From Candidatus Saccharimonadota bacterium (GTDB lineage: Bacteria > Patescibacteriota > Gracilibacteria > Absconditabacterales > Absconditicoccaceae): 32,000 nucleotides of DNA. Shown here one piece after another: positions 470-29,829 of this stretch (positions within the stretch are counted from its first letter, which is position 1; every line of letters starts with the position of its first letter). The notes under the pieces are model-generated. The model was not told where the DNA came from. It was given only the letters and a program-made list of their open reading frames with translations, and did no database searches. The position numbers and the translations under genes were made by a program. The stretch covers positions 330,001 through 362,000 of the forward strand of contig OZ246420.1 of assembly GCA_965231145.1 (NCBI GenBank), read 5' to 3'.

Positions 470-486
470 CTAAACTAATAAACATG

Positions 487-580
487 GTGTAATATCGTGT
501 AACAATTGTGTAAGGTTGTGTAACATCGTTACTATCAATATTACACTATGTTACACGCTAAGCTTTACACCATTTTACAC
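487..580. repeat. phased hexamer array: 4x GTGTAA followed by 4x TTACAC (its reverse complement)
   Basis: GTGTAA at 487, 497, 508, 518 (10-11 bp spacing). TTACAC at 541, 551, 565, 575. Sequence between motifs is neither conserved nor complementary. Lies in the gap upstream of the cysS start (595). Confidence 0.85.
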
Positions 581-594
581 TGTGACATATTGAG

Positions 595-7013: not shown

Positions 7014-7040
7014 AAGTAGTGAGTTCTAATATATATTTTC

Positions 7041-7068
7041 TTGTATCCACAGCCAAAATCCCTATATT
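7041..7068 (+). promoter_or_regulatory. candidate sigma70-type promoter of lepA (TTGTAT-16-TATATT)
   Basis: The -10 box ends 6 nt before the lepA ATG (7075), with no Shine-Dalgarno motif between. This implies a leaderless or near-leaderless mRNA. Confidence 0.35.
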
Positions 7069-7074
7069 GAACCC

Positions 7075-9093
7075 ATGATAGAAAAGATTCGTAATTTTTG
7101 CATTATTGCGCATATTGATCACGGGAAGTCGACGCTGGCAGACAGAATGCTAGAGATTACTAGTACGGTGAAAAAAGTCGAGCATAGTCAGATGCTCGAT
7201 CGTTTAGATATTGAGCAGGAGCGTGGTATTACTATTAAACTCACGCCAGCGCGTATGAGCTGGAAGGGACATGAGTTCAATCTTATCGATACGCCAGGTC
7301 ACGTAGACTTTGCGTATGAAGTATCGCGCTCACTGGCAGCAGTAGAAGGAGCTATCCTTCTCGTCGATGCGAGCCAGGGTGTACAGGCTCAGACACTTTC
7401 AGTATTGTATCAGGCTATGGAAAATGGCTTAGAGATCATTCCTGTGTTGAATAAAATCGACCTTCCTGCTGCAAATCCAGAGAGAGTAGCACAGGAGCTG
7501 GAACACTTATTGTGAATAGATAAAGAGTCGATCATCAAAGTGTCGGGTAAGACAGGACAAAATGTTGATCTGGTTCTTGATGCGATCATTGAGCGTATTC
7601 CAAATCCTGCAGAGTTCCGTAAGACGCATCAGTCAAAGTTTTTTGCTGATAGTACGATTACGACATTTGACGGAAGCAGAGCACTTATTTTCGACAGTGT
7701 GTACGATAAGTATCGTGGCGTAGTATGTTACGTCAAAGTGCTTGATGGTGAGTTTAAGTGAGATGATAAGCTGCATCTTATCTACTCAGAGAAACAGATT
7801 CAGCCACCGGAGGTTGGTTATTTTACGCCAAACTATGTAAAAGATAAAAAGCTTTCTGAGGGGCAGATTGGGTATATAGTGACTGGAGGAAAGTCGGTAA
7901 GAGATTCGAAGATTGGAGATACGATTATCAAATTTGATGGTCCTCAGCAGACGATAAAAGACTATACGTCGCTCCATAAATTTACTATCCCTGGTTTCAA
8001 AAAGGTAAAGCCATATGTTTACGCTGGAGTCTATCCGGTCGACAGCAATGAATTTGAAAAGCTTCGTGACGGTTTTGAGCGCTTGTCGCTCAATGATAGC
8101 GCGGTAGAGTTCGAGTACGAAAATAGTCAGGCTCTCGGATATGGTATGAGAGCGGGGTTTCTCGGTATGCTTCACATGGATATTATCAGAGAAAGACTCT
8201 CACGTGAGTATAATATCGAGACGATCTTCACTGTGCCAAACGTGGTCTACCTCATGAAAATGAAAAATAATAATCATGAGAAAATAAAGACAGGAACTAA
8301 TGTCTTAGAGCTTGTAGGATCTGGATACTTTGTGCATATCATTAGTAATTTCACTGGGAAACTCAGCCCTGAAGATCAGGAGAATATTGAGTATAAAAAT
8401 GATCATGAATTGTCAGAAATATATAAAGAGAAGTTACGCAGCTGGCTTCTCGTAAGGTCTGGAACAGATATGCCTGAGCAGGGTATGATAGAGACGATCT
8501 ATGAGCCGTATGCTGAGGTAGAGATCGTAGGACCGAAAGATTTTTCAGGAAATATTATGGAGCTTTCACAGGACCATAGATGAGAGATGAAAAGCATGGA
8601 ATATATCGATGAGACAAGAGTTCTCTGGAGATATATGATACCGCTTGGAGAGATTATTATCGATTTTTATGACCAGCTGAAGTCTCGTACGAAGGGTTAT
8701 GCGACTATGAACTATGAGTTTGCTCGCTATAGGGACAGCAATCTCGTGAAGGTAGATATCTATATCAATGGTGAGCAGATCGAAGCGTTTAGCATGATCT
8801 GTCATAAAGATAAGGCGTATAACCAATGATCTGATATTGTGGTGAAACTTAAGGAACTTATTCCGAAGCATCTCTTTGCTATTCCGCTCCAAGCGGGTAT
8901 TGGGAGTAAGATGATCGCTCGTGAGACGATCTCAGCGATGAGCAAGGACGTTCTTGCAAAGTGTTATGGAGGAGATATCTCGCGTAAGAGAAAGCTTCTC
9001 GAGAAGCAGAAAGAGGGTAAGAAACGTATGAAGTCGATGGGAAATGTAAATGTGCCGCCGGATATCTTTATTAATCTCATGTCGAACAGATAG
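7075..9093 (+). CDS. lepA: translation elongation factor 4 (LepA), 672 aa
   Basis: Five same-frame ORF pieces joined across TGA at 7513, 7759, 8581, 8827. G motifs [19 protein letters not shown]-terminal [22 protein letters not shown]. Ends TAG 9091-9093. Confidence 0.95.
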
Positions 9094-9123
9094 CAATTAG
9101 ATGGTAGATGTTAGATTTTAGCA
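9091..9123 (+). repeat. 33-nt TAGCAA heptad element, copy 1 (TAG every 7 nt)
   Basis: TAGCAATTAGATGGTAGATGTTAGATTTTAGCA with TAG at 9091, 9098, 9105, 9112, 9119. The first TAG is the lepA stop codon. Followed by cttattc-TGCTA (short inverted arm). Confidence 0.85.
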
Positions 9124-9141
9124 CTTATTCTGCTACATCAT

Positions 9142-9720: not shown

Positions 9721-9822
9721 TTACGAATATCATTATTCTCCATTCTTCGTGAGAAATTCTGAATAGATATAGAAAATACTAAAGAGAAAGCCATGATTGG
9801 TTTTCTTTTTTAGTATTCAAAT

Positions 9823-10866: not shown

Positions 10867-10908
10867 ACATTTTTATGTTGCAATTGCTACAAAAAACCGC
10901 TATTGTAG

Positions 10909-12486
<1,578 letters not shown>

Positions 12487-12489
<3 letters not shown>

Positions 12490-12573
12490 TTCTCAATTCT
12501 CAGTTCGAAATTTTCAATAAAATATTGAGTAATTATTGAGCATTGAGCCTTTAGAATTTGGAATTATAGGAAA
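12487..12573. repeat. intergenic spacer made entirely of 7-nt periodic repeats with mirrored arms
   Basis: From the metG TAA to the dtd ATG: TAATTCT CAATTCT CAGTTCG AAATTTT CAATAAA ATATTGA GTAATTA TTGAGCA TTGAGCC TTTAGAA TTTGGAA TTATAGG AAA. The left-arm unit CAATTCT is roughly the reverse complement of the right-arm AGAATTT. Confidence 0.75.
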
Positions 12574-13020: not shown

Positions 13021-13096
13021 TCTCTTGCAAAACAATTTTCTCGGGGTATAATTTATTTTCGTCAAACAAAAACTCAACGATAAATACGATAATAAT

Positions 13097-14559: not shown

Positions 14560-14636
14560 AATGTTAAATGCAAAATGTTGAATGTTGAATACAATATCGT
14601 ATTTCTCATTTAACATTTAAAATTCATCATTTTTTA
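14560..14636. repeat. 7-nt periodic spacer in a divergent promoter region
   Basis: AATGTTA AATGCAA AATGTTG AATGTTG AATACAA TATCGTA TTTCTCA TTTAACA TTTAAAA TTCATCA TTTTTTA. The arms are mutually inverted (AATGTTAAATG / CATTTAACATT). Lies between the exonuclease start (14544, minus) and the tsaE start (14669, plus). Confidence 0.7.
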
Positions 14637-14668: not shown

Positions 14669-15070
14669 ATGATGATTATTGCAACACCAGAGGAGATGGT
14701 AGCATATGGAAAACAAATAGGAGAGAAGTACAATTTTGTCTTGCTCGATGGTGAGCTTGGTGCTGGCAAGACGCATTTCGTGAAAGGCTTTGCTGCTGCG
14801 AAGGGTGTCGATTCGAACGAGATCAACAGTCCTACCTACACATATCTGCACGAACATGGAAACACATTGCTTCATATGGATATGTACAGGATCGAAGATC
14901 CGGAATTTCTGATGCATAAAGGCTTACTTGAAAAGATCCATAGCTATCCATCCGTTATCATTGAGTGGCCGAGGTTTACTGAGCAATATGCAGATCATAC
15001 GCGAGCACATATTCACATCACGAAAACTTCACCAACTCAAAGAGAGGTCATCTTAAATCTTAAAGCTTAA
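14669..15070 (+). CDS. tsaE: tRNA threonylcarbamoyladenosine biosynthesis ATPase TsaE, 133 aa
   Basis: LDGELGAGKTHFVKGF P-loop, INSPTYTY motif, HMDMYR. Ends TAA. Confidence 0.88.
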   Translation: MMIIATPEEMVAYGKQIGEKYNFVLLDGELGAGKTHFVKGFAAAKGVDSNEINSPTYTYLHEHGNTLLHMDMYRIEDPEFLMHKGLLEKIHSYPSVIIEWPRFTEQYADHTRAHIHITKTSPTQREVILNLKA

Positions 15071-15117
15071 AACTAAAAAAGATTTTGGATTTCAGTTTTT
15101 AGTTTTTAGTTGTTTGT
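15071..15117. repeat. 7-nt periodic spacer / hairpin between tsaE and nth
   Basis: AACTAAAAA ... TTTTTAGTT 9-bp inverted repeat. Right side reads TTTGGAT TTCAGTT TTTAGTT TTTAGTT GTTTGT then ATG, with T(G/A)G or CAG at 15086, 15093, 15100, 15107. Confidence 0.7.
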
Positions 15118-15786
15118 ATGAATAAAAGAGAAAAGATTGACATAATTTTTGAAGAATTAGGAAGACGCTTTGGTGGTTCGACGACGGAACTACAATATGA
15201 GACGCCGTTCCAACTCCTTATCTGTGTTATGCTTTCTGCGCAGACAACCGATAAACGTGTAAATATGATCACACCGGCATTGTTTACAAAATATCCTGAT
15301 GCTGCAGCCATGAGTAAAGCTACTGCAGAAGAGATACTACCGTTTATCCGTACGGTAAACTATGCAAATGGTAAGTCGAGATATCTCTCAGACACGGCAA
15401 AGAAAATAGCCGCTCGGCAAAAAGAACATAAGACAGATATGATACCTTCGACTATACAAGAGCTGACAGCATTGCAATGAGTCGGTGAAAAGACCGCAAA
15501 AGTGTTGCTCAATACATTGTTCGGAGAGAAAGTGATTGCGGTCGATACGCATGTGCATAGAGTCTCGAACAGACTATGATTAGTGAAAACGAATTCACCG
15601 CTGCAAACGTCAAAGTATCTTGAAAAGATCGTACCAGAAAAATATAAGTCACGAGCGCATCATGGATTGATATTCTTTGGACGTTATACATGTACGGCAG
15701 TCAAACCGAAATGTAGTGAGTGTCCATTTCAGCAGATATGTCCGTACTTTGCTCGCATATTAAGTAAAAATTGAAAACATCGTTAG
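15118..15786 (+). CDS. nth: endonuclease III, 222 aa
   Basis: Pieces 15118-15480 and 15583-15774 joined across TGA 15478 and 15577. The apparent stop TGA at 15772 is read through to TAG 15784-15786. HhH LQ-G-VGEKTAKV, VDTHVHRV, 4Fe-4S ligands CTAVKPKCSECPFQQIC. Confidence 0.93.
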
Positions 15787-15860
15787 TAGCAAATAGATTA
15801 TAGATGTTAGATTATAGCATCTTGCCAATATTTAAAATCCAATATCTAATTGCTTTATTT
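15784..15860 (+). repeat. 33-nt TAGCAA heptad element, copy 2, plus a degenerate inverted arm
   Basis: TAG(stop) then TAGCAAATAGATTATAGATGTTAGATTATAGCA (15787-15819), with TAG at 15787, 15794, 15801, 15808, 15815. The downstream arm CTTGCCAATATTTAAAATCCAATATCTAATTGC is its degenerate reverse complement. Confidence 0.85.
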
Positions 15861-15880
15861 TATTAAGTAAGTTAATAAGT

Positions 15881-18293: not shown

Positions 18294-18306
18294 TATTTAC
18301 ACCTTA

Positions 18307-18420
18307 CAACTAAAATCTTCAAACTGAAAACAAAAGGTAATAATGTCTTTATTATAATGATTCTTTTTATATCTCGATGATTTAGGTTTTGAGTTTTCAG
18401 TTTTTTGCTATTTCTGGTAG
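18307..18420. repeat. 7-nt periodic arms in the divergent region upstream of tRNA-Arg
   Basis: Left arm: CAACTAA AATCTTC AAACTGA AAACAAA. Right arm: GATTTAG GTTTTGA GTTTTCA GTTTTTT GCTATTT CTGGTAG (18379-18420). The arms are roughly inverted (AAACTGAAAAC / GTTTTCAGTTT). Confidence 0.65.
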
Positions 18421-18935: not shown

Positions 18936-18945
18936 ATATTATTTA

Positions 18946-19027
18946 TAGCAACTAGCATGTAGCGATTAGATTCTAGCATTTTCTTGTGCTAATTGCTAAC
19001 TGCCAACATCTAACTGCTGTTTTTTTA
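18946..19027 (+). repeat. 33-nt TAGCAA heptad element, copy 3, with inverted TGCTAA arm and T-run (terminator-like)
   Basis: TAGCAACTAGCATGTAGCGATTAGATTCTAGCA (TAG at 18946, 18953, 18960, 18967, 18974), loop TTTTCTTG, then TGCTAAT TGCTAAC TGCCAAC ATCTAAC TGCTG, then T7 (19020-19026). Confidence 0.85.
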
Positions 19028-19049
19028 TCCCTTAACGTTTTAATAATTA

Positions 19050-20252: not shown

Positions 20253-20282
20253 TAAACTAACAACATTACTTATAATAAGAAA

Positions 20283-20312
20283 ATCCTTCTGAGAGATCAG
20301 AGGGATTTTTTT
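20283..20312 (+). terminator. intrinsic terminator of rpsA
   Basis: 10-bp stem ATCCTTCTGA / TCAGAGGGAT with GAGA loop, followed by T7. Confidence 0.8.
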
Positions 20313-20315
20313 ATA

Positions 20316-20339
20316 CAAAAAAACCGATCATAGATCGGT
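20316..20339 (-). terminator. intrinsic terminator of the 20360-20659 gene
   Basis: ACCGATC-ATA-GATCGGT hairpin. The A8 run on the plus strand becomes a T-run on the minus strand. Confidence 0.7.
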
Positions 20340-20359
20340 GGTAGAAAGAGATAAGAGTT

Positions 20360-20754: not shown

Positions 20755-20829
20755 TTATAAATAAACGTGAATTGCATACGGTACAATACGGAATATTTAT
20801 TATTTTTATCTATTATATATTATTTGAAA

Positions 20830-21345: not shown

Positions 21346-21444
21346 TAAATCTTAAAACTGAAAACTAAAAGCTCTTCTCAGACGGATTTATCAATAATCT
21401 TACCTATAAAAGTTTTTAGGTTTTAGTCTTTAGTCTTTAGTTTT
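21346..21444. repeat. 7-nt periodic arms flanking the bdbC / glycosyltransferase spacer
   Basis: Left arm: TAAATCT TAAAAC TGAAAAC TAAAAGC. Right arm: TTTTTAG GTTTTAG TCTTTAG TCTTTAG with TAG at 21417, 21424, 21431, 21438. The arms are approximately inverted. Confidence 0.75.
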
Positions 21445-21453
21445 CGACTCTCT

Positions 21454-22278
21454 ATGGATAAGATTATCGCAAAGCTCTCTGCAGCAGATGAGGCAGAGAT
21501 TATTCAGCAAATTGTTGCACACTATCAACGCCACAAATATACATGCGTCAATTTTCTCTATTTTGCAAATGCGATGACATATCGCCTCTTTGAGGCGAAT
21601 TCAAAATCAAAAATCCAAAATCTAAAATCAGAGGAGTATAAAAAAACATTGCTCGCAAGTGATTTCTTGTTGCCGGATGGCATAGCGTTGCAGCTTTGGA
21701 GTAAGTGGACAGAAAAAAAGAAGCTTCATAATCTCAACGGTACTGATTTGACTCCTGATATGCTGGCGTATTTGAATAAGCATTCGGCAGCTTCGTTGTA
21801 TATCTATTCTTTGTATGATCCAAAGATTGGTAAAGGCGAGGAGTGGCTGCATAAAGCTATTAGTAATATCCAAGCAGACTATCCGAATATCCATATAGCG
21901 CATAGTTATCAGTCGCTCTATAGTAACAGATGAAAGGATTTCCCATTTGATGAGGTAAAAAAAATCAGCGAAGCTGACGATGTGGAAGTGAAACTATTCT
22001 TGAATTGTACTGGAACGCCATTTCAGGAGATGCGGACAGAGGAGTATAAAGATTTTTTCCAGGCATGTGGATTTCTTGTTATGAATGTAGGTGGATTCAT
22101 TGATTTCGTTGCATGATTTGAGAAGCGTGCACCGCGTTGGGTAGTAAAGGCAAGAGTGCTTGAGACCTTTTGGCGCGTGCTGAGCAATCCCCGCAAAAAC
22201 CTCAAGAAATTCCTTGCAATGTTTGGCATATTCCGCATAATTTCCGGTAGATTGCGCTTGAAAAAAAAGCACAGTTAA
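21454..22278 (+). CDS. WecG/TagA/CpsF-family glycosyltransferase, 274 aa
   Basis: ORF 21454-21933 continues in frame across TGA 21931 and 22114 to TAA 22276-22278. FLLPDGIALQLWS, TGTPFQEMR, NVGGFIDFVA-G-FEKRAPRWVVKARVLETFWRVLSNPRKNLKKF match the family pattern (DGxG, GxPxQE, GVGGxFDxxxGxxxRAPxW, LEWxxRLxxEPxR). Confidence 0.85.
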
Positions 22279-26110: not shown

Positions 26111-26113
26111 TAA

Positions 26114-26183
26114 TAGCAAGTAGCAGATGGCAACTAGCAGATAGCATGCTAATTGCTACCCGCTATAATCTATCTGCCTTTTT
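26114..26183 (+). repeat. 33-nt TAGCAA heptad element, copy 4, with inverted arm and T-run (terminator-like)
   Basis: TAGCAAG TAGCAGA TGGCAAC TAGCAGA TAGCA, then TGCTAAT TGCTACC CGCTATA ATCTATC TGCC, then TTTTT. GCAGATAG (26137-26144) pairs with CTATCTGC (26170-26177). Confidence 0.85.
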
Positions 26184-26202
26184 AGTTTGTTAATTAGTTA
26201 AT

Positions 26203-28538: not shown

Positions 28539-28591
28539 CACAGATAAAAACAGATGAGTTCTAGATTAACGCAGATTATACATACAGTTTA

Positions 28592-28621
28592 TTGACAATG
28601 AGTGTTGCTGTTGACTATACT
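28592..28621 (+). promoter_or_regulatory. near-consensus promoter TTGACA-18-TATACT
   Basis: TTGACA at 28592-28597 and TATACT at 28616-28621, in non-coding DNA 54 nt after the stop at 28538. Confidence 0.45.
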
Positions 28622-28627
28622 AAGAGA

Positions 28628-28722
28628 AAAATTATGATTGCTATGTTGTAGAGGCAAATCCGCCAGATAGGTTTCTACGATGCTCATAATCAATAGCCCT
28701 GCGATTCGCGGGGCCTTTTTTT
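28628..28722 (+). ncRNA. candidate small RNA (~95 nt) between the promoter-like element and a strong terminator
   Basis: No ORF longer than 5 codons. Nested pairings ATTATGA/TCATAAT (28631-28637 / 28684-28690) and GTAGA/TCTAC. Ends in the terminator hairpin. No known RNA family recognised. Confidence 0.35.
28696..28722 (+). terminator. strong intrinsic terminator
   Basis: GCCCTGC-GATTC-GCGGGGC, a 7-bp GC-rich stem, followed by T7 (28716-28722). Confidence 0.8.
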
Positions 28723-28752
28723 AATAATTTTTTAGAACGGATTTTTGTATAC

Positions 28753-28780
28753 AAAAAACGGGAGATGTCGTCCCGTTTTT
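28753..28780. terminator. bidirectional terminator hairpin, likely serving tRNA-His
   Basis: A6-ACGGGA-GAGATGTCG-TCCCGT-T5. Sits 70 nt downstream of the tRNA-His 3' end on the minus strand. Preceded by the 16-nt palindrome TTTTTGTATACAAAAA (28743-28758). Confidence 0.65.
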
Positions 28781-28848
28781 GAGTAACTTTTCTTGTTTCT
28801 TTCTATGATTTTGATAAGCTGATTTCTAATGATATTTTATATGTTTCA

Positions 28849-28924
28849 TGGGGCGGCCGACGGGAATTGAACCCGCGGCCAGAGGATCCACAAACCTCTG
28901 CTCTACCACTGAGCTACGGCCGCC
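28849..28924 (-). tRNA. tRNA-His (anticodon GTG), with encoded G-1 and encoded CCA
   Basis: The minus strand reads G-GCGGCCG-TA-GCTC-AGTGGTA-GAGC-A-GAGGT-TTGTGGA-TCCTC-TGGCC-GCGGG-TTCAATT-CCCGT-CGGCCGC-C-CCA. The acceptor stem is perfect. The extra 5' G opposite discriminator C73 is the bacterial tRNA-His hallmark. Confidence 0.9.
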
Positions 28925-28998
28925 ACGAGTGCAAGTGACTATATAGATTAGGACGGCTATTGCAATACAAATTCTTTACTATTATCTTCAGGCTTCTT

Positions 28999-29778
28999 AT
29001 GAAAAGATCGATTTTCGCTCTTTGTGCTGCGGTATTTGTCTTGTCTCTGTGATATTCTGTGTCGGCTATCGGAGCTATTAGAGTGCTTCCATGAAGGACA
29101 ACTCATTATACTACTGCAAAGGGTTCAGAGGTATGGCATTATCAAATTCCTAAGATAACCGTTATTAAGCCCTCCGCTTTTGACATACTCTTTGAAGGAC
29201 AAGGAGACACCGTAACCGATGTGGTCCATCAACATGAGTATAGTGCCGCTATCAATGCTTCGTACTTCGGGTGGAATAGCGATGGTAGTTATTTCCCTGC
29301 ATGAGTCTGGTATGACAATGGTTTTCTGATAACACCTCAAAGCCTCAATCAAAAAGATCTCAATCTGCAAGTATTAGCATATTACCATAAGTGACAGCTA
29401 GAGCTCTATGATAATAACGCTGTAGATATCAGTACGCTTTCATATACGACACCAGGTCTCTATTTCAATGCTGGTCCATGGTTGGTGAAGCAAGGAAAGA
29501 TCAATCCTGACATAGTGAAATCTCGCTCGCACTGGCAGTCAAAAACATATAGAACAGCAATCCTTCGTAAAGTAGATGGAACTGTCTACTTCCTGGTAGC
29601 CACTGCAAAGATAGATCTTCCACAGTTTATCGTGTTTGCCTTCAAAAGTAATCTCATCCAAAAGGATGAGAAGTTTGATCTAGTGAACCTTGATGGTTGA
29701 TCGTCAACATCACTCTGGTCGCCGGCTGTGAAGTTCAATGCGAAGAAGAAGTTACCATTGTTTATAGGAATTAAATAG
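28999..29778 (+). CDS. secreted phosphodiester glycosidase family protein (DUF2233/NAGPA-like), 259 aa
   Basis: Only the 29482-29700 piece is in the ORF track. The frame is continuous from ATG 28999 across 5 TGA to TAG 29776-29778. Signal-peptide-like MKRSIFALCAAVFVLSL, AAINASYFGW, NAGPWLVKQGK, VNLDG-G-SSTSLW (LDGGGS motif). Confidence 0.82.
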
Positions 29779-29824
29779 CAATTGGATTATAGACGTTAGA
29801 TATTAGATTTTAGATTTTAGTAAA
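29776..29824 (+). repeat. TAGCAA heptad element, copy 5: seven heptads, no inverted arm
   Basis: TAGCAAT TGGATTA TAGACGT TAGATAT TAGATTT TAGATTT TAGTAAA, with TAG/TGG at 29776, 29783, 29790, 29797, 29804, 29811, 29818. The first TAG is the glycosidase stop. The array ends 5 nt before the gmk ATG (29830). Confidence 0.88.
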
Positions 29825-29829
29825 TTACT

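What the first reader, a model, noticed from the sequence alone, without database searches (positions are those of the whole stretch)
12487..12573. Most intergenic spacers in the window are built from locus-specific 7-nt periodic repeats, often as mirrored arms
Other spacers also parse into heptads beyond the TAGCAA family, each with its own unit.
- 12487-12573: 12 heptads fill the metG-dtd gap exactly (CAATTCT-type arm, then TTGAGCA / TTTAGAA-type arm).
- 14560-14636: AATGTTG-type then TTTAACA-type.
- 15071-15117: TTTTAGT-type.
- 18307-18420: AAACTGA-type then GTTTTGA-type.
- 21346-21444: CTGAAAA-type then TCTTTAG-type.
- 9725-9764: GAAT/ATTC with 7- and 14-nt spacing.
They occur in tail-to-head, convergent and divergent (promoter) contexts, so a terminator role alone does not explain them. 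A period of 7 is neither the codon period (3) nor the helical period (10-11). It could reflect a replication-slippage bias, a heptad-reading nucleic-acid-binding protein, or selection for frame-independent stop (TAG/TAA) content. Spacers at 7014-7074 and 13021-13096 do not show it, so the pattern is not universal.
Basis: seen in the sequence. Interest (0 to 1): 0.65.

Follow-up and report, generated by a model that had tools for sequence, protein, structure and literature searches.

The report
Heptad-repeat palindromes filling intergenic spacers
About half of the gaps between genes in this small Absconditabacteria (SR1) genome are filled by short hairpin-forming palindromes built from 7-base tandem repeats; close relatives lack them at the same junctions, which makes this a clear new example of the poorly understood "heptanucleotide repeat" class of bacterial DNA.

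Summary
Pooled over 24 spacers, self-similarity peaks only at lags 7, 14 and 21 (z=7.4, 5.6, 2.9). Coding DNA shows only period 3. TRF finds 18 period-7 arrays against 1.0±1.1 in shuffles.

The units are not locus-specific. They form dispersed families: TAGCA/TAGAT, CTNAAAA/TTTTNAG and TTCTCAA/TTGAG, plus rarer 6-, 9- and 10-11-nt families. Most consist of two complementary arms, giving 50-110-nt imperfect palindromes.

They are lineage-specific. In five relatives (71-80% MetG identity) the same gene pairs abut or overlap, and 13 other UGA-recoded loci show no comparable signal. The trait is therefore not a code-25 property.

Exact 7+7 duplications number 8 against 0.5 expected, and none occur for units of 8-12 nt. 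This points to DNA-level slippage in 7-nt steps, combined with copying between loci.

All four two-armed TAG-family copies precede a sense-strand T-rich stretch (two clean T-runs) and probably act as terminators.

The closest known class is the heptanucleotide LSSR/STRR/TAACTGA repeats, with REP-like traits. A heptad-reading protein remains possible but is unsupported.

The parts
12487..12573 (+). metG stop to dtd start: an 84-nt spacer. One arm is TTCTCAA-type (about 4 units) and the other TTGAG/TTTAG-type (about 6 units), forming an imperfect palindrome.
   Evidence: Lag-7 z=5.6. TRF period 7. Folds to -18.4 kcal/mol with the stem running from the stop codon to 8 nt before the ATG. The spacer is 0 nt or an overlap in L001, L087, L090 and L092, and 28 nt in L088. 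Each arm carries an exact 7+7 duplication.
9091..9141 (+). TAG-family copy A: TAGCAAT TAGATGG TAGATGT TAGATTT TAGCACT, followed by a small hairpin. The first TAG is the lepA stop codon, and the element ends at the next ATG.
   Evidence: Lag-7 z=2.9. 88% identical over 33 nt to copy B. The genes overlap (TAATG) in L001.
14560..14636 (.). AATGTTG-type arm and CATTTAA-type arm in the divergent 5'-3' exonuclease / tsaE spacer.
   Evidence: TRF 14574-14590 and 14607-14632, period 7. Exact 7+7 duplications in both arms. Fold.
15048..15114 (+). ATCTTAA-type arm overlapping the last codons and stop of tsaE, then a TTTTTAG-type arm ending 8 nt before the nth ATG.
   Evidence: TRF 15050-15071 and 15090-15111, 93% matches. 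Lag-7 z=4.5. The L001 spacer is 4 nt and its TsaE C-terminus differs.
15784..15862 (+). TAG-family copy B: a 5-unit TAG arm, a 5-unit complementary arm, then the T-rich stretch CTTTATTTTATT.
   Evidence: Lag-7 z=3.4. Fold z=-2.3. A 22-nt exact match to copy F in the left flank. The element sits between the stop codon and the ancestral 'CTTTATT...' spacer seen in L001 and L087.
18305..18412 (.). CTNAAAA-type arm, a roughly 50-nt centre, then a TTTTNAG-type arm, in the divergent spacer upstream of tRNA-Arg/rpsO.
   Evidence: TRF 18386-18404. 19 nt at 95% identity to the 21346 element. The element is absent from the homologous spacers of L001 and L087.
18945..19030 (+). TAG-family copy C between rpsO and the S1 gene: 5+5 heptads forming a long hairpin, followed by T7.
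   Evidence: Lag-7 z=4.5. Fold -22.7 kcal/mol, z=-3.05, 0/200 shuffles as stable. L001 has only a small hairpin (GTAGCAT aaacca ATGCTCA) before the same conserved TTTTTTTATCCC sequence.
21346..21446 (+). CTNAAAA-type arm, a centre, then a TTTTNAG-type arm (about 5 units) between the dsbB-like and wecG-like genes.
   Evidence: Lag-7 z=5.5. TRF 21411-21444, 4.9 copies. The centre shares TTATCAATAA with the 25-nt L087 spacer.
26111..26186 (+). TAG-family copy D after the RNase Y gene: 5+5 heptads followed by T5.
   Evidence: Lag-7 z=5.1. TRF period 14, score 54. Fold -24.4 kcal/mol.
29776..29826 (+). TAG-family copy E, single-armed with 7 units. The first TAG is the stop codon of the upstream gene. 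The array ends a few nt before the gmk ATG.
   Evidence: Lag-7 z=3.6. TRF 5.1 copies. 88% identical over 26 nt to copy B. No stable fold.
9721..9790 (+). Weakly periodic GAAT/ATTC region upstream of a conserved terminator.
   Evidence: Lag-7 z=2.1. Orthologous and roughly 60% identical in L088, whose copy carries TTTCAATTCTCAAT units like the metG-dtd arm.
480..585 (+). The same two-armed architecture with a different period: 4 GTGTAA units at 10-11-nt spacing, then 4-5 TTACAC units, upstream of cysS.
   Evidence: Best lag 10, z=3.6. Fold -33.3 kcal/mol. The L088 spacer at this junction is 24 nt.

Best explanation
These are lineage-specific small palindromic repeats whose arms are degenerate tandem arrays of a 7-nt unit. 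They belong to the same class as the heptanucleotide long simple-sequence repeats (LSSR/STRR-type) known in other bacteria.

Proposed mechanism:
1. SHOWN: they are additions relative to relatives, inserted or expanded at gene junctions that are ancestrally 0-30 nt long.
2. SHOWN as a pattern, with mechanism INFERRED: arrays grow locally by duplication of exactly one 7-nt unit. I attribute this to slipped-strand mispairing and the known heptanucleotide bias.
3. INFERRED: growth starts on or around small hairpins or spacers, and the two arms stay matched either by intrastrand template switching or by selection for the hairpin.
4. SHOWN as sequence similarity, with the copying mechanism UNKNOWN: whole arms or elements are copied to other spacers, giving dispersed families with unit-by-unit positional homology.
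5. INFERRED: the products are long imperfect hairpins. Where a T-run follows on the sense strand (copies B, C, D, F) they most likely serve as the intrinsic terminator. Inside operons they are tolerated intercistronic hairpins that span from the stop codon to the next start.
For: - Periodicity: z=7.4 in the window and z=4.3 in unseen flanks. TRF finds 18 period-7 arrays against 1.0 in shuffles.
- Insertion status: metG-dtd, lepA-next gene and tsaE-nth abut or overlap in L001, L087, L090 and L092, against 84, 48 and 47 nt here.
- Growth around older sequence: at rpsO-S1 the ancestral small terminator hairpin and T-run are retained at the core of copy C. At dsbB-wecG the arms flank an ancestral centre.
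- 7-nt step: 8 exact 7+7 duplications against 0.5 expected (maximum 4 in 200 shuffles), and 0 for k=8-12. Matched duplications occur in both arms of two elements.
- Dispersal: 33 nt at 88%, 22 nt at 100%, 29 nt at 93% and 19 nt at 95% between different spacers. Five of the six TAG-family copies read TAGCAAN-(TAGNNNN)3-TAGCA; copy E has seven units and lacks the closing TAGCA. The CTGAAAA family occurs at a non-orthologous site in L088.
- DNA-level origin: there is no sense/antisense asymmetry in stability or G.U use.
- Lineage specificity: L001 gives z=-1.6. Of 13 other code-25 loci only one exceeds z=3, and that is caused by a single perfect array.
- Literature: heptanucleotides are the commonest LSSR class, and polymerase slippage has been proposed as the cause (PMC4679880). 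Heptamer arrays near starts and promoters occur in Nostoc.
- Terminator role: the T-rich stretch lies on the sense strand after all four two-armed TAG-family copies, as clean T-runs at C (T7) and D (T5) and interrupted at B (CTTTATTTTATT) and F (CGCTTTTAAT).
Against: - Conservation within units is very uneven. TAG is nearly invariant while positions 6-7 look random (mismatches per position 1, 3, 0, 16, 16, 19, 15; chi-square p=3e-7). Unit 1 is TAGCAA plus any base in all six copies. Neutral slippage debris should not look like this, so some constraint acts, whether pairing, a recognition motif or a binding protein.
- No copy-number variation could be seen. Three samples are 100% identical.
- No agent for dispersal was found, neither a transposase nor target-site duplications.
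- Hairpin stabilities are only modestly better than shuffles for some elements (z from -1.2 to -3.05).
- The simple terminator scan does not call the elements.
- A 29-nt, 97% match of a period-9 array to a Saccharibacteria locus hints at horizontal mobility that slippage alone does not explain.
Confidence: 0.55

Rival explanations
1. REP/REPIN- or MITE-like non-autonomous mobile elements. Each family would be mobilised by a transposase (for example a RAYT / IS200-605-type enzyme) encoded elsewhere in the genome. On this view the heptad substructure is incidental.
For: - Dispersed families show high similarity and positional homology.
- The elements are extragenic, palindromic and lineage-specific.
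- Insertions are clean relative to relatives.
- The same family sits at a non-orthologous site in L088.
- A near-identical array occurs in a different phylum.
Against: - No transposase lies in 48 kb, and there are no target-site duplications.
- At least six families with different units and periods share one architecture within 48 kb, which fits a process better than a single element.
- Arms flank ancestral spacer or hairpin sequence at two loci, which a one-step insertion would not do.
- The excess of exact 7+7 duplications shows local growth.
- The TAG-family pattern is absent from viral contigs.
Confidence: 0.2
2. Binding arrays for a heptad-reading protein. On RNA this would resemble HutP, which reads XAG triplets spaced 7 nt apart in a terminator. 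On DNA it would resemble the ribbon-helix-helix omega/ParB of pSM19035, where one dimer binds each 7-bp repeat in direct and inverted arrays. Such a protein would regulate termination, translation or DNA architecture genome-wide.
For: - TAG is nearly invariant at 7-nt spacing while the 4-nt spacers vary.
- TAG is over-represented on the sense strand (z=4.0).
- Single-armed arrays A and E keep TAG without a pairing partner.
- Both precedents are real. HutP-dependent cleavages in hut RNA fall at U498, U505 and U512, and its XAG sites flank the terminator stem (PMC2425495). Omega requires at least 4 contiguous heptads in direct or inverted orientation (PMC9499535).
Against: - Several families lack XAG (AATGTTG, ATTACGA, and the period-6, -9 and -10 units).
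- A random heptad contains AG or CT on one strand more than half the time (my estimate).
- The closest relatives lack the arrays, so any reader would not be essential.
- No HutP, TRAP or RHH candidate is among the window proteins.
- The pairing constraint in stems can explain most of the uneven conservation.
Confidence: 0.12
3. Selection for stop codons in all three frames after genes, as a compensation for UGA no longer being a stop. Period 7 cycles a TAG through every frame.
For: - TAG is enriched on the sense strand (z=4.0).
- All three frames close slightly sooner than in shuffles (58 vs 67 nt; 19/500).
- Arrays A and E begin with the stop codon itself.
Against: - TAA is not enriched (z=-1.5).
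- Relatives using the same code lack the arrays.
- A code-11 Saccharibacteria spacer has the same architecture, and TAGAT heptad arrays are common in code-11 metagenome contigs.
- Several arrays contain no TAA or TAG.
- The arrays also occur in divergent promoter spacers.
Confidence: 0.03
4. Cherry-picked low-complexity AT-rich sequence with no real periodicity.
Against: - Dinucleotide-preserving shuffles never reach the observed lag-7 value (0/500).
- The result replicates in unseen flanks.
- TRF finds 18 arrays against 1.0 in shuffles.
- About 45 code-11 loci and most code-25 loci analysed the same way show nothing comparable.
Confidence: 0.01

Closest known systems
Heptanucleotide long simple-sequence repeats: cyanobacterial STRR/heptamer arrays, TAACTGA repeats of Beggiatoaceae, and the LSSRs of Mrazek et al. 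2007
   Same: Tandem 7-nt units, 2-8 copies per array, almost all intergenic and often ending at or near a start codon or overlapping a gene end. Phylogenetic distribution is patchy. Function is unknown, and polymerase slippage has been proposed as the cause (PMC4679880; Nostoc TTTTGAA and GACYAAT arrays).
   Different: Here the units are degenerate (70-93% matches) rather than near-perfect. Several unit families coexist. Most arrays come as two complementary arms forming a palindrome, whereas BOGUAY has 169 direct sets but only one indirect repeat. The host is a roughly 1-Mb UGA-recoded CPR genome, where such repeats have not been described in the papers I could search.
REP / BIME / REPIN elements of Enterobacteria and Pseudomonads
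   Same: Short imperfect palindromes that are strictly extragenic. They lie between genes of operons or at operon ends, occur as dispersed species-specific families, and can act as terminators or mRNA hairpins (PMC3116915; functional roles from my own knowledge).
   Different: REPs have no internal tandem periodicity, usually form one to three families per genome, and are tied to a RAYT gene. No RAYT was seen here, and local 7-nt-step growth is evident.
HutP binding sites in the Bacillus subtilis hut terminator
   Same: XAG triplets are separated by 4 variable nucleotides (7-nt register) and lie in and around a terminator hairpin. The protein reads three triplets per face (PMC2425495). The TAG-family 5' arms are (UAG-N4)x5 within hairpin-plus-T-run structures.
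   Different: hut has one locus with two 3-triplet sites separated by a 12-17-nt linker around a G+C-rich stem. Here many loci carry 5-unit arms that themselves form the stem. No HutP gene was found, and many arrays lack XAG.
Omega (ParB) heptad iterons of plasmid pSM19035
   Same: Contiguous 7-bp repeats in mixed direct and inverted orientation, with at least 4 units needed. They overlap promoters, and one RHH dimer binds each heptad (PMC9499535).
   Different: The omega unit is WATCACW, and the arrays are contiguous without loops, plasmid-borne and few in number. Here arms are separated by loops or centres, the units differ, the loci are chromosomal and numerous, and no RHH gene lies nearby.
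DNA uptake sequences (Neisseria DUS, Pasteurellaceae USS) as inverted pairs in terminators; mycobacterial MIRUs
   Same: From my own knowledge: lineage-specific short motifs at about 1 per kb, frequently as inverted pairs downstream of genes acting as terminators. MIRUs sit between operon genes and overlap the stop and start codons.
   Different: DUS and USS are single 9-12-mers, not tandem heptads. MIRUs have 40-100-nt units. Neither shows a 7-nt periodicity.

Membership tests
Heptanucleotide LSSR / STRR-type tandem repeats | Head-to-tail repeats with a 7-nt unit, longer or more frequent than chance | tested here: met
   Lag 7/14/21 z=7.4/5.6/2.9. TRF finds 18 period-7 arrays against 1.0 +/- 1.1 in shuffles. 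Exact 7+7 duplications number 8 against 0.5 expected.
Heptanucleotide LSSR / STRR-type tandem repeats | Predominantly intergenic, at many loci of one genome | tested here: met
   9-13 of 24 window spacers, plus the flanking spacers. Coding DNA shows only period 3. Exact 7+7 duplications occur at 1.6 per kb in spacers and 0.1 per kb in coding sequence.
Heptanucleotide LSSR / STRR-type tandem repeats | Copy-number instability (7-nt indels) between strains | tested here: inconclusive
   The only other copies available (Logan contigs from ERR4405439, ERR4405440 and ERR4405441) are 100% identical. No independent strains were available.
REP / REPIN | Dispersed family of short extragenic imperfect palindromes | tested here: met
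   Six TAG-family copies in 48.6 kb share unit order. All are extragenic.
REP / REPIN | Associated RAYT (IS200/IS605-type Y1 transposase) in the genome | not testable with these tools
   Only 48.6 kb of the genome could be retrieved. No transposase-like protein is present there.
MITE | Terminal inverted repeats plus a target-site duplication at reproducible boundaries | tested here: not met
   Inverted arms are present, but no direct duplication flanks elements A, B or metG-dtd when compared with empty sites in L001. The centres of the two CTNAAAA elements differ, and one contains ancestral spacer sequence.
Rho-independent (intrinsic) terminator | Stable hairpin immediately followed by a T-run on the sense strand | tested here: inconclusive
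   Copies C (T7), D (T5), B (CTTTATTTTATT) and F (CGCTTTT) fit. The consensus scanner does not call them because the stems have periodic internal loops. A, E, metG-dtd and the divergent-spacer elements lack T-runs. No transcript data are available.
HutP-type antitermination site | XAG triplets at 7-nt register | tested here: met
   TAG family: T 31/32, A 29/32, G 32/32, with variable spacers. TTTTNAG and TTGAG arms also fit. The criterion is weak, because AG or CT occurs in most random heptads (my estimate).
HutP-type antitermination site | A HutP (PF09021) homologue encoded in the genome; two 3-triplet sites flanking a G+C-rich stem with a 12-17-nt linker | tested here: inconclusive
   Nine proteins of unknown function in the window gave no HutP hit in Pfam. 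The rest of the genome was unavailable. The architecture differs, since here the arms are the stem.
Omega/ParB (RHH) heptad iterons | At least 4 contiguous 7-bp repeats matching WATCACW, next to an RHH gene | tested here: not met
   Contiguous heptads are present, but the units are TAGCANN, TTTTNAG and so on, not WATCACW. No RHH gene is nearby.

The most novel reading that the evidence does not exclude
The TAG-N4 and related arrays could be a genome-wide 'punctuation' code read by an oligomeric heptad-reading protein. On RNA that protein would be HutP/TRAP-like, and on DNA it would be omega-like (RHH). It would control termination or coupling at gene junctions in an Absconditabacterium. The near-identical array found in a Saccharibacteria genome would then mean that array and reader spread horizontally among CPR bacteria.
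Probability: 0.1. Interest if true: 0.8.

Novelty: new variant of a known kind. Interest (0 to 1): 0.42.

Why it matters
Why 7-nt units dominate long simple-sequence repeats in prokaryotes, and whether such arrays do anything, has been open since at least 2007 (as summarised in PMC4679880).

This lineage offers an unusually clean natural experiment for three reasons:
- The genome is streamlined to about 1 Mb, with ancestral gene junctions of 0-30 nt.
- Close relatives preserve the empty sites.
- The arrays are caught at several stages: exact 7+7 duplications, matched growth of both arms, extension of an ancestral terminator stem, and copying between loci.

The case also shows that translationally coupled gene pairs can tolerate 50-90-nt palindromic insertions. 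It warns that gene callers and terminator predictors will misread such spacers in UGA-recoded CPR genomes. If a reader protein exists, it would be a new global regulatory layer in CPR bacteria.

Tried and rejected
1. Code-25 causation. I computed lag-7 z for about 60 loci around metG. The closest relative gives -1.6, and 13 other UGA-recoded loci are mostly below 2.6. Rejected.
2. Frame-independent stop selection. TAA is not enriched and the frame-closing effect is weak. Rejected.
3. Known RNA families. Rfam gathering-threshold scan finds only two tRNAs.
4. Simple terminator or promoter consensus. The elements are not called, and the promoter count is no higher than in shuffles.
5. RNA-strand-specific selection. 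Sense and antisense folds are equally stable, and the G.U counts are equal at 32 and 32. There is no evidence for selection on RNA structure.
6. Phage origin of the TAG family. There are 0 hits in viral contigs. A loose T-rich heptad pattern hits many viral contigs and is uninformative.
7. A reader protein or transposase near the arrays. Pfam finds nothing relevant on 9 unknown proteins.
8. Target-site duplications. None appear at three clean insertion sites.
9. Strain variation. All retrievable copies are identical.
10. XAG phase-locking as evidence for a HutP-like reader. I judged it statistically weak, because most random heptads contain AG or CT.
11. My early impression of a '6/6 orientation bias' in the TAG family was withdrawn. 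A two-armed palindrome reads the same on both strands, so only the two single-armed copies and the T-runs carry orientation information.
12. The Elhai 2008 paper on small dispersed repeats could not be retrieved.
Full report
**What the window is.** TGA is a sense codon here. Long ORFs cover 19.5 kb under code 11 and 46 kb stop-to-stop when only TAA and TAG are stops. The genes are housekeeping ones: cysS, lepA, metG, dtd, tsaE, nth, rpsO, an S1 gene, RNase Y, lgt, gmk, and tRNA-Arg and tRNA-His. MetG's best relatives are Absconditabacteria/SR1: 78% identity for the best hit and 59% to Absconditicoccus praedator. The window is 100% identical to Logan contigs assembled from runs ERR4405439, ERR4405440 and ERR4405441. 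Those contigs let me extend the sequence by 8.3 kb on each side, to 48.6 kb.

**Check of the observation.** My code-25 gene list gives 24 spacers of at least 30 nt, 2637 nt in total.
- Pooled self-match by lag, against 500 dinucleotide-preserving shuffles, stands out only at lag 7 (z=7.4, 0/500), lag 14 (z=5.6) and lag 21 (z=2.9).
- Coding sequence shows only period 3.
- Nine spacers have lag-7 z of at least 2.9, and 13 have z of at least 2.
- On the 48.6-kb region TRF finds 18 period-7 arrays against 1.0±1.1 in shuffles, 7 period-9 arrays against 1.3, and 3 period-6 arrays against 0.3.

The periodicity is real. 'Most spacers' is a mild overstatement, and period 7 is dominant rather than exclusive. 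The same architecture occurs with period 6 (GATACN/TATCAG), period 9 (AAGTTNNTA and its complement, two loci) and period 10-11 (GTGTAA/TTACAC, window 470-594).

**Anatomy.** Most elements have two arms. An array of 3-5 units is followed by a loop or short centre and then by an array of the complementary unit, so the spacer is an imperfect palindrome of 50-110 nt.
- Predicted hairpins alternate about 5 paired bases with 2x2 internal loops. Copy C folds to -22.7 kcal/mol (z=-3.05). The others reach z of -1.2 to -2.3.
- The units are not locus-specific. Different spacers share 33 nt at 88%, 22 nt at 100%, 29 nt at 93% and 19 nt at 95%.
- Five of the six TAG-family copies (window 9091, 15784, 18945, 26111 and one in the left flank) share one plan: TAGCAAN, three TAGNNNN units, then TAGCA at the apex. 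Copy E (29776) starts with TAGCAAT but has seven units and no closing TAGCA.
- Over the 32 units of this family, TAG is nearly invariant. Positions 4-5 are dimorphic (CA or AT). Positions 6-7 are essentially random. Mismatches per position are 1, 3, 0, 16, 16, 19, 15 (chi-square p=3e-7).
- The two-armed copies B, C, D and F are each followed by a T-rich stretch on the sense strand. C (T7) and D (T5) have clean T-runs; B (CTTTATTTTATT) and F (CGCTTTTAAT) have interrupted ones.
- Copies A and E have one arm, start with the upstream stop codon itself, and run up to the next ATG.

**Comparison with relatives.** A profile search around metG returned 80 loci, and four further close relatives were fetched by protein identity. 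L001 (80% MetG identity) and L087, L088, L090 and L092 (71-78%) are syntenic with the window.

| Junction | Relatives | Window |
|---|---|---|
| metG-dtd | abut or overlap in four; 28 nt in L088 | 84 nt |
| lepA-next gene | TAATG overlap (L001) | 48 nt |
| tsaE-nth | 4 nt (L001) | 47 nt, with a changed TsaE C-terminus |
| nth-PAP2 | 29-30 nt | 94 nt; element B lies between the stop and the ancestral CTTTATT… spacer |

Two junctions show growth around older sequence:
- At rpsO-S1, L001 has a small hairpin (GTAGCAT-aaacca-ATGCTCA) before a conserved TTTTTTTATCCC. The window keeps that apex and T-run but has four more heptads on each side.
- At dsbB-wecG, the centre between the arms shares TTATCAATAA with the 25-nt spacer of L087.

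The arrays are therefore additions in this lineage, sometimes built around pre-existing sequence. The trait is quantitative rather than all-or-none:
- L088 carries one clear CTGAAAA/TTTTNAG element at a non-orthologous site, and an orthologous weakly periodic region upstream of a conserved terminator.
- Close relatives as a group have 7 period-7 TRF arrays in 65 kb, against 0 in one shuffle.

**Not a code-25 property.** The same lag analysis gives z=-1.6 for L001. Among 13 other UGA-recoded loci only L006 exceeds 3, and that comes from one perfect (TAGAATT)x14 array. None of about 45 code-11 loci reaches 3.2. Conversely:
- A code-11 Saccharibacteria locus (L037) has a 195-nt spacer made wholly of mosaic arrays with complementary arms.
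- TAA is not enriched in the spacers (z=-1.5), and frames close only marginally sooner than in shuffles.

The frame-independent-stop idea is not supported.

**How the arrays arise.** Exact adjacent duplications of a 7-mer occur 8 times in 5.1 kb of spacer, against 0.5 expected (maximum 4 in 200 shuffles). Units of 8-12 nt give none, and units of 4-6 nt are at chance. This is the footprint of recent duplication in steps of exactly 7 nt.
- It fits the reported dominance of heptanucleotides among prokaryotic long simple-sequence repeats and the polymerase-slippage proposal (Mrazek et al. 2007, as summarised in PMC4679880).
- In two elements both arms carry such a duplication, each arm with its own variant. 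Arm lengths are therefore kept matched, either by selection for the hairpin or by template switching.
- Sense and antisense strands fold equally well, with equal G·U use. The palindromes look like DNA-level products rather than structures honed on one RNA strand.
- Positional homology between copies shows that whole arms are also copied between loci.
- I found no agent for that copying: no transposase or relevant domain in the region, no target-site duplications, and no TAG-family match in viral contigs.

**What they do.** This part is inference. The four two-armed TAG-family copies, each followed by a sense-strand T-rich stretch, most likely act as intrinsic terminators. In copy C the ancestral terminator has simply acquired a longer stem. 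Elements between formerly coupled genes span from stop codon to start codon, so they are at least tolerated as intercistronic hairpins. The uneven conservation within units indicates some constraint. Stem pairing explains most of it. A recognition motif or a binding protein cannot be excluded.

**Heptad-reading precedents.** Two real cases exist.
- HutP reads XAG triplets in a 7-nt register within the hut terminator (PMC2425495).
- The ribbon-helix-helix omega/ParB protein of pSM19035 binds one dimer per 7-bp repeat in direct and inverted arrays (PMC9499535).

The TAG arms formally resemble HutP sites. However, several families lack XAG, relatives lack the arrays, and no candidate reader was found. 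I give this reading about 0.1.

**Comparison with what is known.** The nearest class is the intergenic heptamer repeats: cyanobacterial heptamers, TAACTGA in Beggiatoaceae, and LSSRs generally. This case differs in four ways:
- The units are degenerate.
- Several families coexist.
- Paired complementary arms predominate.
- The host is a reduced CPR genome.

The elements also behave like REP/REPIN elements (PMC3116915), but they have internal periodicity and no visible RAYT. Literature searches found no description of such repeats in Absconditabacteria, Gracilibacteria or CPR genomes generally.

**Verdict.** I class the finding as a new variant of a known kind, of moderate interest.

**Unexplained.**
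- The period-9 array left of the window matches L037 (a different phylum) at 28 of 29 nt, and a viral contig carries the same 24-mer.
- The near-absolute conservation of TAG also remains unexplained.

Noticed in passing
window 470-594: A strong palindrome (-33 kcal/mol) upstream of cysS, built from 4 GTGTAA units at 10-11-nt spacing followed by 4-5 TTACAC units. The relative L088 has only a 24-nt spacer at this junction. It shares the two-armed architecture of the heptad elements but has a helical-repeat period, so a DNA-binding operator array is conceivable.
   Followed up: partly
left flank of window (L086:7430-7540, i.e. window -858..-750) and L037:12836-12864: A period-9 array (TTATAAAGTTCTTAAAGTTTATAAAGTTA) matches a Saccharibacteria MAG locus at 28 of 29 nt. 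That locus was fetched only through MetG similarity. The same 24-mer also occurs in viral contig L334:1345-1368. Possible explanations are horizontal transfer of a tiny element, a shared binding site, or convergence.
   Followed up: partly
L037:12778-12972: A 195-nt spacer in a code-11 Saccharibacteria genome consists entirely of mosaic short-period arrays: (TAGGATA)3, ACTTTANAA nonamers, CTAANNN heptads and (TACCCTA)n, the complement of TAGGGTA. It includes TTTAGGG-like units.
   Followed up: partly
L006:8616-8720: A perfect (TAGAATT)x14 array upstream of a gene in another UGA-recoded MAG (54% MetG identity). A second TAGAT-like patch lies at L006:4072-4185.
   Followed up: no
window 10897-10927: The leader upstream of metG (CCGCTATTGTAGGCTGACTTTACGATTATTA, preceded by TTGCAAT) is 97% identical in L088/L089 and 89% identical over 47 nt in L001. 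That is more conserved than the flanking coding DNA. There is no Rfam hit, so it is probably a promoter or 5'-UTR regulatory element.
   Followed up: no
window 7033-7066: The spacer before lepA (ATATTTTCTTGTATCCACAGCCAAAATCCCTATA) is 94% identical in L001. It contains GTATCCACA, which matches the DnaA-box consensus TTATCCACA at 8 of 9 positions. It could equally be a -35/-10 promoter pair.
   Followed up: no
window 20761-20781 and left flank (about window -5707..-5687): A non-heptad 21-nt dispersed repeat, ATAAACGTGAATT[A/G]CATACGG, sits next to G+C-rich hairpins in two unrelated spacers. Separately, GGATTTTT[T/G]TATACAAAAAA is shared by the spacers at 20253-20359 and 28539-28764.
   Followed up: no
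window 28690-29778 / 28849-28923: tRNA-His on the minus strand lies inside the long code-25 ORF. The real gene (NAGPA / phosphodiester glycosidase domain, Pfam E=6e-14) probably starts at the internal Met (MKRSIFALC...).
   Followed up: partly
window 21598-21630 and 12239-12262: Period-7 arrays also occur inside coding sequence: AAAATCA x4 in the wecG-like gene and AAGGGAC x3.4 in metG. They are much rarer per kb than in spacers.
   Followed up: no
L114, L120, L143, L186, L188, L189, L191 (metagenome contigs): Many unrelated metagenome contigs share (GATTTTA)4 followed by the conserved GATT[G/T]ACTCCACAG... context. This suggests a widespread dispersed element that carries a heptad array. A cyanobacterial origin is a guess only.
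   Followed up: no
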